IMG/VR virus record: IMGVR_UViG_2718218172_000010
From: a virus
Taxonomy: Duplodnaviria > Heunggongvirae > Uroviricota > Caudoviricetes
Strand: one strand, 5' to 3'
DNA length: 64,000 nt
The position numbers were made by a program. The first letter of the stretch is position 1. Each line of letters opens with the position of its first letter. Of this stretch, positions 42,001 to 48,000 are shown piece by piece.

Positions 42001-45000
42001 AATCCATCCGGTGCGGCAGTGGAAAAACGCACGGTTTCAATAACCGTTTCGCCGGACGTTTATCAGGTGCCGTTCGTTATCCCGTCATCACAAAACGTCA
42101 TGGTGCTAATCACCTGGAACACGGTGTCTGATGATTATGTTGATCCGGCGGGTATTGCTATGGCTGTGCAGCAAAACGTTGCTGATTACATCAATTCAAT
42201 TGAAGTCGGACACCCGATAAATCTTCTGCGTATCCAGGATATTTTTACCAGTTCCGTCAGGTTGCTGGTTGATGCGACGTTGATCTCAACAATCAGTGTG
42301 AGTATTGGTATTAACGGCCATATTGTTCTTCCGGCGAAAGACACAAGCCTGGTTTATGGCGATACCTATTCCTATTTTTCAACGGTGGCATCACAGGTTC
42401 AGGTCAACAAGCATGCAATATCTGACTGAGAAAATTCTCCCTGCTTATCCATTTGCGCAGTACAGAGATGATCCGAATGTTGTTGCGTTCTTTGATGCAT
42501 ACAATGAAATTGCTCAGGAATACCTCGATTCACTCAACAATCTGGCATTGCCATGCTGGACATCGGAATCAATAACCGGGCAATTACTGGACTGGATTGC
42601 ACTCGGGATTTATGGCGTTGAAAGGCCTTTACTACAGGTTTCCGAGGAGGCTATTGCACGCGGCGCATACGATACCATTGAATACAATACGATCCCGTAT
42701 GCAGCAATGCGGAATTACGTTCCAGGGCAGGCATCGTATGTCCCTGATGATTATTTCAAACGAATATTAACTTGGAATTTTTATAAGGCTGACGGTTCGC
42801 ATTTCTGCATTGATTGGTTAAAGCGCCGTGTGGCACGGTTCATTCATGGGAAAAACGGAATAGACCCGCCATTGCAGCATACTTTTGATGTGAGTGTGAC
42901 TGTATCGGACAGTGTTTTTTCTATTCAGATACCAGAGTATGGCGATGGCATAGGCTATTTTCTTAAAGATGCCATTGACCAGAAATATGTAAAACTCCCT
43001 TTTATTTATTCCTATGCAACAACGGTGATTCAAAAATGATTCTTGGATTTGGCAATAACGTTGTTTCAGCACTGGCTGGCGATATCACGACGATTCAGAC
43101 TGATATTCCGGTGATGCCGGGCACGGGAGCTAAATTTGCAAAATTGCTTTCTGCCGATTTTGAAAATAAATCGAACGGGCAACGCGTCTATGCAAAAATT
43201 ACGCTTACCGATAATAAAGAGTCTGCATTTGAGATTTGTCACCTGGTATCGGTAAGCGGTGATGTGTTGAAAGTCATTCGTGGGCAGGAAGGAACAACCG
43301 CGAAAGGTTGGTCCCTTAATGACGTTGTGGCTAACTTTGCCACGCGTGGTTCGGAAAACCATTTCGTACAGATAGCGCAGCTTCAGAGTGGTCATTATAT
43401 TGCGGGAGTTGCTGGCGGCACTGCAAACGCGCTGACTCTGGAGCTTCCCGCGACGTTTTTTGTTAATGGAGGTACAGACTGGACGCTACGAACCCCGATT
43501 ATCGTTTTCCCCGTTCAGAACAATACCAATGCCGCGACACTTCAATTAACACTGGGCGGAAAGGTTCTTGGTACGTTCCCGCTTTATAAGGGGAACAAGT
43601 CCGAGCTGGTAGCGAACGATATCATTAAAGGCATTCCCTTAATTTGTCTTCTTGATAGCGAGAAAAGCTATTTCAGCGTGATAAACCCTGGCAATATCTA
43701 TTCAGATTTTGATCTGCGATATGTAAAAAAATCTGGTGATTTGATGACCGGAGAACTAAAAATCCGTGGTGTTAATGCACTGAGGATTTTCAACGAAGCT
43801 TTTGGCCTGATTTTTCGTCGTTCGGAAGAGTGCCTGCACTTTATTCCAACACAGGAAAACCAGGGTGAAAATGGCAATATTGGTCCACTTCGACCGTTCA
43901 CTATTAATCTGCGGACGGGTGAAATATCCATGTCGCATAAAGTGTCTGTTGGCGGCGGTTCTCAGGTCAATGGTGCGCTGGGTATCGGTGTTCAGAACGC
44001 GCTGGGCGGTAACTCAATTGCTTTCGGGGATAACGATACCGGCCTGAAACAGAATGGTGACGGCCTGCTGGATGTTTATGCCAATGGTCAGCACGTATTC
44101 CGTTTTCAGAATGGCGCGTTACNNNNNNNNNNNNNNNNNNNNNNNNNNNNNNNNNNNNNNNNNNNNNNNNNNNNNNNNNNNNNNNNNNNNNNNNNNNNNN
44201 NNNNNNNNNNNNNNNNNNNNNNATTATCAGGCGCAACTGAAGCGGCATAATCTGCGTGGAAGTATGAGCGCAAAAGGTTGCTGCTACGATAATGCCTGCG
44301 TGGAAAGCTTCTTTCATTCGCTGAAAGTGGAATGTATCCATGGAGAACACTTTATCAGCCGGGAAATAATGCGGGCAACGGTGTTTAATTATATCGAATG
44401 TGATTACAATCGGTGGCGGCGGCACAGTTGGTGTGGCGGCCTCAGTCCGGAACAATTTGAAAACAAGAACCTCGCTTAGGCCTGTGTCCATATTACGTGG
44501 GTAGGATCACATAACCTGAAATGGCACTAATGGCCAGAGCTTACTAATACATAATCCCTACAGGATGTAGCCACCAGTTTTGTTCATCCGGTATTCTGAT
44601 TTGGTAACATGCTCCAGAAAGGAAGAAATATGTACTGCAATGAATTAAAAGAATTTGCGCAAGAGCAGGAACAAAAACTTATCAGTGCGCTTGCTGATAC
44701 CAGAGAGCACCCGTCCCCCGATGGTGAAACAAGAAGCCGGGATAATTATCAACGGGATTACGCGCGTATTCTGTATTCATCATCATTTCGCAGGCTGCAG
44801 GGAAAGATGCAACTTTTTGAAATTGATCCTGAAAAATTCAACAGAAACAGATTAACGCACAGTCTTGAGGTTGCTCAGATCGCCCGAAGTATCGCGTCAG
44901 ACCTCAAACTGATTAACCCGGTGGTGGTTGAACTGGCAGCGCTGGCGCATGACATCGGAAATCCTCCTTTCGGTCATTCCGGTGAAAAACTGCTTAATGA

Positions 45001-48000
45001 ACTGTCTGAAGAAATCGGCGGCTATGAAGGTAATGCACAGGCGCTACGTATCCTGAGAAAACTGGAGAAGAAATTTTCATACTGCAACGGATTAAATCTG
45101 ACTCACCGTAGTTTACTTTCGGTTGTTAAGTATCCCATCCCCCGCGCTGCAGCTACTGCCGGCAAGTTCATTTATGATGATGATTACTATTTTTACATTA
45201 ACCTGCTTGCTGAAAATCAGCTCGATCTGAATCCCGGAGAGAAAACGATTGATGCGCAGATAATGGATCTCGCGGATGAGATTGCCTACGCCGCGCATGA
45301 CCTGGAAGATGCCCTTAGCAGGAACATGGTCACGATTGAAGATATTGAATATGAGTTTCAGATTTCTGACGAATTCCGGGGAGCGAGGGAACAGTTCAGG
45401 GAAATCGTTACTCAGTCGAGAAACACCGCTTTTCAGGCTAACTTACTGAAAACCTCAGAAGAATTTGCCATCATATTCCGCAAGGAGTTAACTTCAAATA
45501 TTGTCAATCGCCTCGTTGCAGATATTTCTGTAGTAACGAACCTGAATGGTTTTCAGGAACTGGGGTTCGGGAAACTGAATGCGTTATCCGAAGGACTCAA
45601 AAAACTTCTCTTTAAAGTCATCATGCGAAAACGTAATATCCTCACCTATGAGTTCAGGGGAAATAAAATAATCAGGGATTTATATGACTTTTACAATGAA
45701 GGAGAGAATTATAAATTTCTGCCTCCTGAACTTAAATTCACCTTACCCCAACCAGATTCCTGTATATTTGAAATCAGCAAAAAACGAGCAGTGGTTGACT
45801 ATATTTCAGGTATGATGGATACATTTGCAGTCAAGGAATGGGAAACTCACTGTCTGAAGTAACACTGCCGATTACCAGAGGCGCATATTTTCCCGTTATG
45901 GTTATTGCGCCTTTATTCCGTTTCGGTGACAGGTTATTTTAAATATTCTGGAAATGCGTTGATGGGCAAGAACAATTACCCTGAAAATAAATACAGGAAA
46001 TGGTTTTCCACAGCAATAACATATCTTATTACAGGTGGTTTGTGCTGGTATATGTTGTGGGCATCCGCTATATCTCATTATACTGTTTTACAAAATACGG
46101 TACCTGAATGGACAACATATTTTTGCACCGGTATAATCACCGGATCTCTTTCTTTTATTTATGCATTTTATATCCGCACCTTTAACAGAACATTAAAGTC
46201 TTTATTAAATGCATTCACGGGGGGATTTTGTCTTGGATTTATACTGAGTCTGAACTGTTACGATGTCTGTGTTTATCTTTTTCCGGATAAGGTTATTAGC
46301 TATGAATCTGAATATGATGTTGTTTTTCCGGGACCATCAAGAGGAAAGTATGGACATTGTGAAGCGGGACTCTGGTTGAAAGATCAAAACACTTCCAGAT
46401 GGATACAACTTTGTACAAATAAAGAGTTCCTGCGCAGTCACCATAAGCAGGGGATGACAGGTGTATGGGTAACAGCTCGTGTTAATAAAATTGGGTCGTA
46501 TATCGTGAAATATGAATTTATCTATATGTAGGTAAAAGCTGACATGTTTACCATGGATGAGTTGCTATATTTTTGCGCATACAGGAGTAATCGATTACTG
46601 GCTATACTAAAAATACAGAGAAAAGCTATCCCGGGATAAAGATTACCAACTCACAGAGACAAGCCTTGCCTTATAAACAGATAAATATCATCAACACAGA
46701 TTCAGAAGCTGAAGCAGTAAGCCATGGTTAACTGCCTGCTGCCAGTACAGATAAAACAATCAGTCTCGCTGACTGGCTCTTATCACTATCGTTATTTCAT
46801 AACTCTACAGTATAACTCATTTATCTTTATTGCCATATATTAGCATGAAGTCAGGCATTTTCATTCCCTGTCGATAATATATCAACTCCGGAGAAGTGCT
46901 TGCTATATATTCCTTGATATTAATACAAATTCAAATATATATTGCTGTTATTCATAATCAGGACCAGATGATACTTCCTGAGATATAAGAAAATCATCAA
47001 GAGAACCTCCGGCTTTTATAGCCTCTGCTATGGCCTTAGGCCGACGTCCTTGCCCATTCCAGTACATTCTTTTACCGTTATCGTCATACTCGTATTTATG
47101 CCCTCCTGACACACTTTTTCTGCCTGCCTGTGATTTTTTGCCAAATTCACGACAAAAATCTTCCAGAGATATACCATGTTCATCCATGAGTGATTTGATA
47201 GCTTTCATATTTTCCTTTCGCTCATCACGTTGCTGAATAGCTATGTCAAAGTTTTCCTTAACCTTATTTAAATCTTCATCAGACATTTCTGTGACCAGTT
47301 TTTTAACAAAGTCAATACTCAGAAGTAATGCCCGGTAAGTAATGAACTCTTCATTTTCAACAGAAATTTTCTTCTTACTCATTTATTAACACTCAGCTTT
47401 TCATTCATTTATGGCAAATCCTATCAGGTGATTTGCCATAAAAATAATATATGTATCACATTTTTCGACACTTAATCGTCACTTCCTTTCCGAAGGAAAG
47501 GCCATCGCAGAAAGTAAGAGAACGTTCTTTGTATTTGATACTTAGCGAAATTGCGCCGGTCACTACTTGTCTGAGTCCATTCACTTTCGTTAATGTTAAT
47601 GAGAAAACCCGCAGTATGATGCGTAATTTCATCAAACTGATGAAATTCGGTAGCAATCATATATCTGGTGTAGCCTGCATATTCGCAGGAAAATGAATAT
47701 CGATTATACTAATGGACTAACAATCTCCAGCCTCTTCAAGAAGATGTTATAAATACACACAGATACTGATTCTCATCCCTTTCAGGCCTGGAACACTATT
47801 TCTGCTTTTTAGCATCATCTGGTAGCGATACTTTCCAGGTATGTCGCCCCATTTTTGTTCGTCTCCATTTTTTTAAGAATTGTGCAAGTAAAAAACTTTT
47901 TACCTCTCCTGGAACTGTCGTATTTGCTGATATTGTTCGTTTGTCTAAAGAACCTGCTGGTCTTGTCATTAATATTACCTGCTGATTGCTTCACACCCGG

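What the first reader, a model, noticed from the sequence alone, without database searches (positions are those of the whole stretch)
44630..46531. dGTPase-family HD protein plus adjacent membrane protein next to an IS3 end: possible nucleotide-depletion defence module
The ORF has the full Dgt-type HD motif set but lies in AT-rich accessory DNA beside an IS3 terminus and an assembly gap, not in a housekeeping context. Stand-alone dGTPases are a described anti-phage mechanism (dGTP depletion). A co-oriented 189-aa membrane protein with 3-4 TM helices starts 100 nt downstream; a membrane partner is not part of the described single-gene dGTPase defence and could indicate a two-component variant or an unrelated neighbour.
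Basis: partly seen in the sequence, partly recalled or inferred. Interest (0 to 1): 0.65.

Follow-up and report, generated by a model that had tools for sequence, protein, structure and literature searches.

The report
Known stand-alone antiphage dGTPase; unrelated membrane neighbour
The gene is an ordinary member of an already described family of single-gene antiphage enzymes that starve viruses of dGTP, carried on an E. coli genomic island, and the small membrane-protein gene next to it is a chance neighbour, not a partner.

Summary
Window 44630-45862(+) encodes an intact 410-aa HD/HD_assoc dGTPase-family protein. A 189-aa three-helix membrane protein starts 99 nt downstream (45962-46531). 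The right end of IS3 lies 120 nt upstream (44509), directly after a 100-N gap.

The defence reading of the dGTPase is supported but not new. It matches PADLOC's dGTPase model (1.5e-109). It is 53% identical to Vdg, the Vibrio cholerae dGTPase shown in 2026 to defend alone. It keeps every catalytic and dGTP-pocket residue of Vdg. It is only 24% identical to the core E. coli Dgt, which is present in 5425 of 5426 complete genomes. This gene is in 344 of them, always on an island. Relatives 64-83% identical sit at prophage ends or beside NACHT, SIR2, SNIPE and HNH genes.

The two-component idea is not supported:
- None of 33 species loci and 5 further contigs carrying the membrane gene has a dGTPase.
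- No dGTPase context outside the E. coli island has the membrane gene.
- DNA homology to the Proteus copy stops exactly at the dGTPase stop codon.
- About 131 E. coli genomes keep the dGTPase intact with the membrane gene cut in half.

The membrane protein belongs to a small orphan family of unknown function. Overall this is ordinary and of low interest.

The parts
44123..44222 (.). 100-N assembly gap. Sequence to its left (phage tail-fibre gene) belongs to another contig.
   Evidence: N-run located and visible. In complete genomes the DNA left of the IS3 is different.
44223..44509 (+). Right-hand 287 nt of an IS3 element: the 3' end of the orfB transposase (stop at 44479) and the terminal inverted repeat ending ...GGATCA at 44509.
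   Evidence: Pfam rve_2 4e-21 and rve_3. Thousands of E. coli IS3 copies match query positions 1-287 and then diverge. Annotated as an IS3 family transposase in L001.
44630..45862 (+). Stand-alone Vdg-type dGTP triphosphohydrolase, 410 aa (WP_000271619-type): the putative nucleotide-depletion antiphage gene.
   Evidence: Pfam HD+HD_assoc. PADLOC dGTPase 1.5e-109. TIGR01353 passes its cut-off. 53% identity to Vdg, PDB 9VWA. Catalytic, dGTP-pocket and 7 of 8 dAMP-site residues conserved.
45877..45914 (+). GC-rich hairpin in the 99-nt spacer after the dGTPase stop. It lacks a clean T-run, so it is only a weak terminator candidate.
   Evidence: RNA fold: 9-bp stem, region z-score -1.1, not significant. 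Not called by the terminator scan.
45962..46531 (+). 189-aa inner-membrane protein: three TM helices plus a roughly 85-aa C-terminal small beta-barrel with two invariant Cys. Orphan family, unrelated neighbour of the dGTPase.
   Evidence: Family. AF2 model. No Pfam, PADLOC, NCBIfam or PHROG family. No fold match. No dGTPase in its other genomic contexts.
46948..47382 (-). H-NS-family paralogue, 144 aa, convergent with the two genes. Part of the island backbone.
   Evidence: Pfam Histone_HNS 2.2e-12 and Histone_HNS_N. Annotated as H-NS family in L001.

Best explanation
The 410-aa ORF is a stand-alone HD-domain dGTP triphosphohydrolase of the Vdg clade. It is carried as a single-gene cargo on a large E. 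coli integrative genomic island.

Mechanism, inferred from Vdg and Sp-dGTPase: the enzyme, probably assembled as an octamer, hydrolyses dGTP to deoxyguanosine and triphosphate. It may be stimulated at a conserved dAMP-type allosteric site. Draining the dGTP pool stalls phage DNA replication.

The downstream 189-aa membrane protein is an independent accessory gene of unknown function that lies next to the dGTPase only in this island lineage. The IS3 end and the N-gap are assembly and rearrangement scars, not part of any system.

Shown here: family membership, residue conservation, accessory distribution, mobile and defence-type contexts of the homologues, and absence of co-occurrence with the membrane gene. 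Inferred: enzymatic activity, oligomeric state and phage protection for this particular protein.
For: Enzyme identity:
- HD+HD_assoc, PADLOC dGTPase 365 bits, TIGR01353 above cut-off.
- The best solved relative is Vdg (9VWA/9VWC/9VWG) at E 1e-114 and 53% identity over the full length.
- Conserved relative to Vdg: 4 of 4 metal ligands, the H/E dyad, 9 of 9 dGTP-pocket residues, 7 of 8 dAMP-site residues, and 3 of 5 octamer-interface residues with the other 2 conservative.
- Vdg alone protects E. coli against T2, T4, T5, T6, T7 and phiX174, and its H114A mutant does not (PMC13519002).

Not housekeeping:
- 24% identity to the core Dgt, and 156 bits against a cut-off of 405 for the Dgt equivalog model.
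- Core dgt is in 5425 of 5426 genomes; this gene is in 344.

Mobile and defence contexts:
- E. coli island with integrase, type I restriction-modification and an AAA ATPase.
- A 64%-identical paralogue next to int in a lambdoid prophage.
- Proteus copy directly after a prophage integrase.
- Klebsiella copy beside a 2092-aa NACHT protein.
- Pantoea copy beside a SIR2 protein.
- Other copies beside a SNIPE/T5orf172 nuclease or an HNH nuclease inserted between hyc and hydN.

Membrane gene unrelated:
- 0 of 33 species loci and 0 of 5 further contigs carry a dGTPase.
- 0 of 79 non-E. coli metagenomic dGTPase loci carry the membrane family.
- Nucleotide homology to the Proteus copy covers 44568-45862 and ends at the stop codon.
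- 131 of 335 E. coli genomes hold only nt 1-289 of the membrane gene while the dGTPase is 100% intact.
- GC differs: 42.9% against 36.8%.
Against: - No experiment exists for this exact protein.
- The Vdg evidence comes from heterologous over-expression, which could make any active dGTPase look defensive.
- The protein falls below NCBIfam's antiphage_dGTPase cut-off (284 against 400). It is about 39% identical to Sp-dGTPase over 81% of its length, under the 45% threshold at which Tal et al. saw defence-island enrichment.
- No sigma-70-like promoter was found between the IS3 end and the ATG, so expression is unverified.
- Within E. coli the two genes are almost always linked, and the spacer has no convincing terminator. 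Co-transcription is therefore not excluded.
- The truncation of the membrane gene is at one coordinate, so it is probably one ancestral event rather than many independent losses.
Confidence: 0.82

Rival explanations
1. Two-gene defence module: the membrane protein senses or regulates the dGTPase, or acts as a second abortive-infection effector. The pair would be co-transcribed and work together.
For: The genes are co-oriented and 99 nt apart, with no clear terminator or internal promoter between them. In E. coli they have nearly the same distribution: 344 against 335 genomes. Two-gene dNTPase systems do exist, for example Clover CloA-CloB.
Against: - No co-occurrence outside one island lineage that is at least 95% identical: 0 of 33 species loci and 0 of 5 further contigs on the membrane side, 0 of 6 close contexts and 0 of 79 metagenomic loci on the dGTPase side.
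- Homology to the Proteus copy ends at the dGTPase stop codon.
- About 131 genomes keep an intact dGTPase with half the membrane gene deleted.
- Vdg and Sp-dGTPase work alone.
- The two genes differ in base composition.
Confidence: 0.04
2. The accessory dGTPase is not primarily antiviral. It would be a second dNTP-pool enzyme serving the island or host, for example in mutation-rate or replication control, or in nucleotide salvage, like the many dGTPase homologues outside defence islands.
For: It is below the curated antiphage_dGTPase cut-off and below the 45% identity to Sp-dGTPase at which defence-island enrichment was reported; more distant homologues were beside known defence genes only 10% of the time. 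In some genomes it lies near other nucleotide-metabolism genes: a thymidylate-synthase homologue, aGPT-Pplase3 and a MazG-like protein.
Against: - It is sporadic (6% of E. coli genomes) and always on mobile DNA.
- Homologues are prophage morons or sit beside NACHT, SIR2 and nuclease genes in five unrelated contexts.
- The closest characterised relative is antiviral.
- The nucleotide-metabolism neighbours are separated from it by an IS3 without a target-site duplication, so they were joined secondarily.
Confidence: 0.1
3. The membrane ORF is itself an independent protective gene, for example an orphan immunity protein against an envelope-acting polymorphic toxin, or a superinfection-exclusion factor. 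This concerns only the neighbour and is compatible with the best explanation.
For: Predicted topology puts a conserved, probably disulfide-bonded small beta-barrel in the periplasm. In 4 of 34 loci the gene lies at the end of cdiA/cdiI arrays. On a ParAB plasmid-like contig it lies near Barstar and Imm42 immunity genes. Its genomic distribution is patchy and island-associated.
Against: Most loci show ordinary chromosomal neighbours such as LysE, LysR, MCP, GST and fdhE. It has no hit in the phage collection, PHROGs or PADLOC. No cognate toxin is consistently adjacent, and there is no fold match.
Confidence: 0.12

Closest known systems
Vdg, Vibrio cholerae O1 dGTPase (DGT1B_VIBCH; PDB 9VWA/9VWC/9VWG; Shi et al., Nat Commun 2026, PMC13519002)
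   Same: Same length class (402 against 410 aa) and the same HD+HD_assoc architecture. 53% identity end to end. Identical catalytic dyad, metal ligands and dGTP pocket; 7 of 8 dAMP allosteric residues. Single-gene system.
   Different: R31 of the dAMP pocket is E33 here. Octamer-interface H235 is Y241 and K324 is R335. Octamer-octamer contact residues are only partly kept. Activity, oligomeric state and phage protection are untested for this protein. It lies on an E. coli island rather than in Vibrio.
Sp-dGTPase / Ec-G177 dGTPase clade (Tal et al. 2022; NCBIfam NF041026 antiphage_dGTPase; PDB 9P8W)
   Same: Same enzyme superfamily and the same proposed mechanism of dGTP depletion by a stand-alone gene in defence islands. 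Covered by the same PADLOC model.
   Different: About 39% identity over 81% of the protein, and 284 bits against a cut-off of 400. Sp-dGTPase is 462 aa and hexameric, with an insertion after the first HD helix. The E. coli G177 gene tested by Tal et al. has a different sequence from this one.
Clover (CloA dNTPase + CloB nucleotidyltransferase; Yamaguchi et al. 2025 preprint, PMC12265719)
   Same: An HD dGTPase effector used for phage defence, and the only described two-gene dGTPase system.
   Different: The partner here is a membrane protein with no NTase motif or domain. CloA is a distant relative, E about 1e-25 against 1e-114 for Vdg. The pairing here is not conserved.
E. coli housekeeping Dgt (b0160; PDB 4X9E)
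   Same: HD-domain dGTP triphosphohydrolase.
   Different: 24% identity, 505 aa, core gene in the mtn-dgt-degP synteny in 5425 of 5426 genomes. The window gene is an additional, accessory copy.

Membership tests
Stand-alone antiphage dGTPase (PADLOC 'dGTPase'; Vdg-type) | HD phosphohydrolase domain followed by the HD-associated C-terminal domain, about 400 aa, with no other domains | tested here: met
   Pfam HD 81-226 and HD_assoc 327-411 in the 417-aa reading.
Stand-alone antiphage dGTPase (PADLOC 'dGTPase'; Vdg-type) | Metal-binding H...HD...D and the catalytic His/Glu dyad | tested here: met
   H77, H107-D108, D216 and H116/E119 align with Vdg H75, H105-D106, D210 and H114/E117.
Stand-alone antiphage dGTPase (PADLOC 'dGTPase'; Vdg-type) | dGTP-specific pocket residues of Vdg (Q59, L60, N133, K165, Y166, K176, Y214, D218, E330) | tested here: met
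   9 of 9 identical (residue list from PMC13519002).
Stand-alone antiphage dGTPase (PADLOC 'dGTPase'; Vdg-type) | dAMP allosteric site and dimer-to-octamer interface | tested here: inconclusive
   7 of 8 allosteric residues are identical (R31 becomes E33). 3 of 5 testable interface residues are identical and 2 are conservative. Y400 and K402 could not be aligned. Oligomeric state was not predicted.
Stand-alone antiphage dGTPase (PADLOC 'dGTPase'; Vdg-type) | Match to the defence-database profile | tested here: met
   PADLOC PDLC02374 dGTPase, E 1.5e-109, 365 bits, profile positions 19-369 of 395.
Stand-alone antiphage dGTPase (PADLOC 'dGTPase'; Vdg-type) | Accessory, horizontally mobile gene located in defence islands or prophages | tested here: met
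   Present in 344 of 5426 E. coli genomes. Island with integrase and type I restriction-modification. Homologues beside int, NACHT, SIR2, SNIPE and HNH genes.
Stand-alone antiphage dGTPase (PADLOC 'dGTPase'; Vdg-type) | dGTP hydrolysis in vitro, dGTP depletion on infection, and catalytic-site-dependent phage protection | not testable with these tools
   Requires cloning, plaque assays and LC-MS.
Sp-dGTPase-type antiphage dGTPase (NCBIfam NF041026; Tal et al. 2022 'close homologues') | Score at or above the curated cut-off of 400 bits, or at least 45% identity to Sp-dGTPase over at least 90% overlap | tested here: not met
   284 bits. 130 identical of 332 aligned columns, that is 39% over 81% of the query. 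Criterion taken.
Housekeeping Dgt (E. coli dgt orthologue, NCBIfam NF003429) | Equivalog score of at least 405 bits and the mtn-dgt-degP core synteny | tested here: not met
   156 bits. 24% identity. Different locus; the core dgt is present separately in 5425 of 5426 genomes.
Clover (CloA-CloB) two-gene dNTPase system | Adjacent Pol-beta-type nucleotidyltransferase partner | tested here: not met
   The downstream protein has no NTase domain or any curated family hit. The upstream neighbour is IS3.
Hypothetical dGTPase + membrane-protein two-component system | Conserved co-occurrence of the two gene families across taxa | tested here: not met
   Membrane side: 0 of 33 species loci and 0 of 5 further contigs. 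dGTPase side: 0 of 6 close contexts and 0 of 79 metagenomic loci.
Hypothetical dGTPase + membrane-protein two-component system | Both genes retained intact wherever the system occurs | tested here: not met
   The membrane gene is reduced to nt 1-289 in about 131 of 335 E. coli genomes while the dGTPase is intact.

The most novel reading that the evidence does not exclude
In the E. coli island lineage the orphan membrane protein may have been recruited recently as a partner of the Vdg-type dGTPase. It could act as an envelope sensor of phage attack that releases or activates the enzyme, or as a second effector. That would make a lineage-specific two-gene variant of nucleotide-depletion defence. 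The data do not strictly exclude it, because the genes are co-oriented, 99 nt apart, lack a clear terminator and are linked in about 200 genomes.
Probability: 0.04. Interest if true: 0.5.

Novelty: already known. Interest (0 to 1): 0.12.

Why it matters
It matters little beyond correct annotation. The gene adds one more island-borne copy of a single-gene dGTP-depletion defence that standard tools (PADLOC) already call, and whose clade now has a structure and phage data (Vdg).

The useful outcomes are negative:
- The apparent prophage adjacency is a scaffold artefact.
- The IS3 is a rearrangement scar.
- The 'membrane partner' should not be propagated as part of a dGTPase system.

The membrane protein is a small, well-conserved orphan family: three TM helices plus a periplasmic, probably disulfide-bonded beta-barrel, with 54 clusters at 50% identity in 1.84 billion proteins. 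Its function remains open.

Tried and rejected
- Weak Pfam hits of the membrane protein (Sulf_transp 19 bits, Voltage_CLC 15.6 bits) are below the curated cut-offs and were rejected as hydrophobic-segment noise.
- The ZorA hit of the H-NS paralogue (E 0.0075) was rejected as coiled-coil noise.
- An exhaustive profile search found only same-architecture relatives and no informative fusions.
- No conserved partner of the membrane gene emerged from clustering its neighbours, small ORFs included. A LysE exporter appeared in 9 of 34 loci and cdiA arrays in 4 of 34. These were judged insufficient for a functional call.
- A terminator between the two genes: a hairpin exists but lacks a T-run and is not significant against shuffles. 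It is left as ambiguous.
- The published Tal et al. 2022 paper was not held, so the preprint and its Table S5 were used. The E. coli G177 dGTPase tested there belongs to the Sp-type clade and is not this gene.
- A link between the dGTPase and the thymidine-hypermodification genes across the IS3 in PCN033 and EC4 was considered and rejected. The IS3 has no target-site duplication, its left flank varies between genomes, and other dGTPase homologues lack these neighbours.
- The metagenome scan returned mostly distant relatives (29-54% identity). It is a weak test for the Vdg clade specifically, but none of those loci had the membrane family.

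
Full report
**Observation**

The window is E. coli DNA. The 3-kb block 44480-47500 is 100% identical to many complete E. coli chromosomes.

- The ORF at 44630-45862(+) is intact: 410 aa from the RefSeq-annotated ATG, or 417 aa from an upstream in-frame ATG.
- It carries Pfam HD and HD_assoc and passes TIGR01353 dGTP_triPase at 316 bits against a cut-off of 152.
- The next ORF, 45962-46531(+), starts 99 nt after the stop and encodes 189 aa. It has three hydrophobic segments and a positive-inside pattern that places the C-terminal 85 residues outside the cytoplasm.
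- The 287 nt at 44223-44509 are the right end of IS3. There are rve_2/rve_3 hits, and thousands of E. coli IS3 copies match exactly up to 44509 and then diverge.
- A 100-N gap at 44123-44222 precedes the IS3 end, and a second gap lies at 61223-61322.

The finding therefore sits on a 17-kb contig (44223-61222) that starts inside IS3. The phage tail-fibre gene left of the gap is only a scaffold neighbour. In complete genomes the DNA on that side of the IS3 is different.

**What the dGTPase is**

- PADLOC's dGTPase model matches at 1.5e-109 over nearly the whole profile.
- Against all PDB sequences, the best relative by far is the 402-aa protein of 9VWA/9VWC/9VWG (E 1e-114). These are the structures of Vdg, the Vibrio cholerae O1 dGTPase of Shi et al. 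2026 (PMC13519002). BLASTP gives 53% identity end to end.
- I mapped the residues named in that paper onto the window protein. The metal ligands, the His/Glu dyad and all nine dGTP-pocket residues are identical. So are seven of eight dAMP allosteric residues. The dimer-to-octamer interface is identical or conservatively replaced at the five positions I could align.
- Vdg expressed alone protects E. coli against T2, T4, T5, T6, T7 and phiX174. A catalytic H114A mutant does not.

The window protein is more distant from the other described dGTPases:

| Relative | Similarity to the window protein |
|---|---|
| Vdg (9VWA) | 53% identity, full length |
| Sp-dGTPase of Tal et al. (9P8W) | about 39% identity over 81% of the protein |
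| NCBIfam NF041026 antiphage_dGTPase | 284 bits, cut-off 400 |
| CloA of the two-gene Clover system | E about 1e-25 |
| Housekeeping E. coli Dgt | 24% identity; 156 bits against cut-off 405 |

The E. coli G177 dGTPase that Tal et al. tested is of the Sp type and is not this gene.

**Housekeeping or accessory**

The core dgt is found in 5425 of 5426 complete E. coli genomes, in the mtn-dgt-degP synteny. The window gene is found at 95% identity or more in 344 genomes, always chromosomal, and 280 of them share the same IS3 junction.

In PCN033 the gene lies in an island that begins with an integrase. The island carries a type I restriction-modification system with an AriA/NsnB-like AAA ATPase, the H-NS paralogue, ProQ/FinO, AlpA-like and inovirus-Gp2-like genes. 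The rest of the window contig is the same backbone, with DUF3987, a YeeP-like GTPase and a WYL regulator.

Relatives 64-83% identical occur in six other contexts:

- Next to int at the end of a lambdoid prophage in 41 E. coli genomes (64% identity).
- Directly after a prophage integrase in Proteus mirabilis.
- Beside a 2092-aa NACHT protein in Klebsiella.
- Followed by a SIR2 protein in Pantoea.
- Beside a SNIPE/T5orf172 nuclease.
- With an HNH nuclease in a small insert between hycI and hydN.

This is the signature of a mobile single-gene defence cargo.

**Is the membrane ORF a partner?**

It is a real gene. There are 61 clusters at 90% identity in Enterobacterales and Pseudomonas. The alignment has 20 invariant columns, including two Cys and a PGP...CEAG motif in the C-terminal domain. 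The AF2 model is confident (pLDDT 88) and shows three TM helices and a small beta-barrel.

Its distribution is independent of dGTPases.

- I fetched 33 loci from one-genome-per-species contigs, spanning Serratia, Rahnella, Enterobacter, Pantoea, Brenneria, Pectobacterium, Erwinia, Xenorhabdus, Pseudomonas and others. None holds a dGTPase homologue within 8 kb, even at E below 10.
- Five further contigs carrying two other close homologues also lack one.
- None of the six close dGTPase contexts contains a homologue of the membrane protein.
- Of 80 metagenomic dGTPase-family loci, only one has it, and that one is the E. coli island itself.
- Only 2 of the 62 metagenomic loci with enough downstream sequence have any co-oriented multi-TM ORF after the dGTPase. 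Both are unrelated 7-TM proteins of about 410 aa.
- DNA-level homology between the window and the Proteus copy runs from 62 nt upstream of the ATG to the last base of the stop codon (44568-45862). The transferable unit therefore excludes the membrane gene.
- Within E. coli, 335 genomes have the membrane gene but only 204 have it at full length. The rest keep only nt 1-289. In strain EC4 a papA fragment follows the break, while the dGTPase is 100% identical and annotated intact.
- GC content is 42.9% for the dGTPase and 36.8% for the membrane gene, close to the 37.5% of the H-NS gene.

Points that remain in favour of a link:

- The genes are co-oriented.
- The spacer is short, with only a weak hairpin and no called terminator or promoter.
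- The two genes are linked within the single E. coli island lineage, which is not independent evidence.

The truncation occurs at one coordinate, so it probably reflects one ancestral event.

**What the membrane protein is**

An exhaustive profile search of 1.84 billion representatives finds only 54 clusters, all of the same size and architecture. Neighbours are not conserved. A LysE-type exporter lies nearby in 9 of 34 loci and cdiA/cdiI arrays in 4 of 34. Barstar and Imm42 immunity genes lie nearby on one plasmid-like contig. An immunity-like or exclusion-like role is a weak lead only.

**Mechanism, with its status**

- Shown: the gene encodes an intact Vdg-clade HD dGTPase with a complete active site and is accessory and mobile.
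- Inferred from Vdg and Sp-dGTPase: it hydrolyses dGTP to dG plus triphosphate, probably as an octamer, and probably responds to a dAMP-type allosteric ligand. This would deplete dGTP and block phage DNA synthesis.
- Unknown: the trigger, and expression in this locus. The IS3 end is 120 nt upstream and no consensus promoter was detected.

**Comparison and novelty**

The gene works like Vdg-type stand-alone antiphage dGTPases and by sequence is a member of that group. It is not a member of the narrower Sp-dGTPase family, nor of Clover (no NTase partner), nor of housekeeping Dgt. The protein (WP_000271619) is already in RefSeq in hundreds of genomes and is captured by PADLOC's model. Nothing here is new except the negative result on the membrane neighbour.

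**Verdict**

- Observation: confirmed.
- Interpretation: partly supported. A defence dGTPase, yes; a two-component variant, no.
- Novelty: already known.
- Interest: 0.12.

Noticed in passing
L001 14935-18671 (E. coli PCN033) and L035 2450-6189 (EC4); not in the window (lost behind the gap at 44123-44222): On the other side of the same IS3 in complete genomes lies a thymidylate-synthase homologue. It is fused in an operon with an aGPT-Pplase3 / amino-acid:DNA-transferase protein (Pfam PF18746, 4.8e-90). An HTH+Peptidase_M78 regulator (PD-Lambda-2_B-like) and an 87-aa MazG-like protein are also there. These are phage-type thymidine-hypermodification genes sitting in a bacterial defence island.
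   Followed up: partly
window 44123-44222 and 61223-61322: Two 100-N gaps show that the window is at least three contigs joined together. Prophage structural genes (for example tail fibre 43036-44122) end at the first gap. An ssb gene (61922-62500) follows the second. Adjacency across the gaps should not be interpreted.
   Followed up: yes
window 46948-47382 (-): A horizontally acquired H-NS-family paralogue (144 aa; Histone_HNS and Histone_HNS_N; closer to the StpA model than to the H-NS model) lies convergent to the membrane gene. It sits in 36-38% GC DNA typical of H-NS-silenced islands.
   Followed up: partly
L036 8880-10106 (E. coli 2013C-3342) and 40 other E. coli genomes: A second accessory dGTPase paralogue (408 aa, 64% identical to the window protein) is carried as the last gene before int in a lambdoid prophage integrated beside yjjG. 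Some E. coli strains therefore have the core dgt plus one or two Vdg-type copies.
   Followed up: partly
L012, L019, L030, L033 (Pantoea, Klebsiella); L055/L056; L002, L016-L027: Homologues of the 189-aa membrane protein lie at the distal end of cdiA / orphan cdiA-CT-cdiI arrays in 4 of 34 loci. On a ParAB plasmid-like contig they lie near Barstar and Imm42 immunity genes. In 9 of 34 loci, across Serratia, Pectobacterium and Pseudomonas, they lie near a LysE-family exporter.
   Followed up: partly
window 40384-41160 (+): A 258-aa ORF with a signal-peptide-like N-terminus lies in a 37% GC patch between prophage genes, left of the gap. It has no Pfam hit and may be a prophage moron.
   Followed up: no
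window 46109-46137 (+): The best sigma-70-like match in the region (TGGACA-17-TATAAT, 11 of 12) lies inside the membrane ORF, just upstream of the point where the gene is truncated in about 131 genomes. Its significance is unknown, and promoter-like sites were not enriched over shuffles.
   Followed up: no
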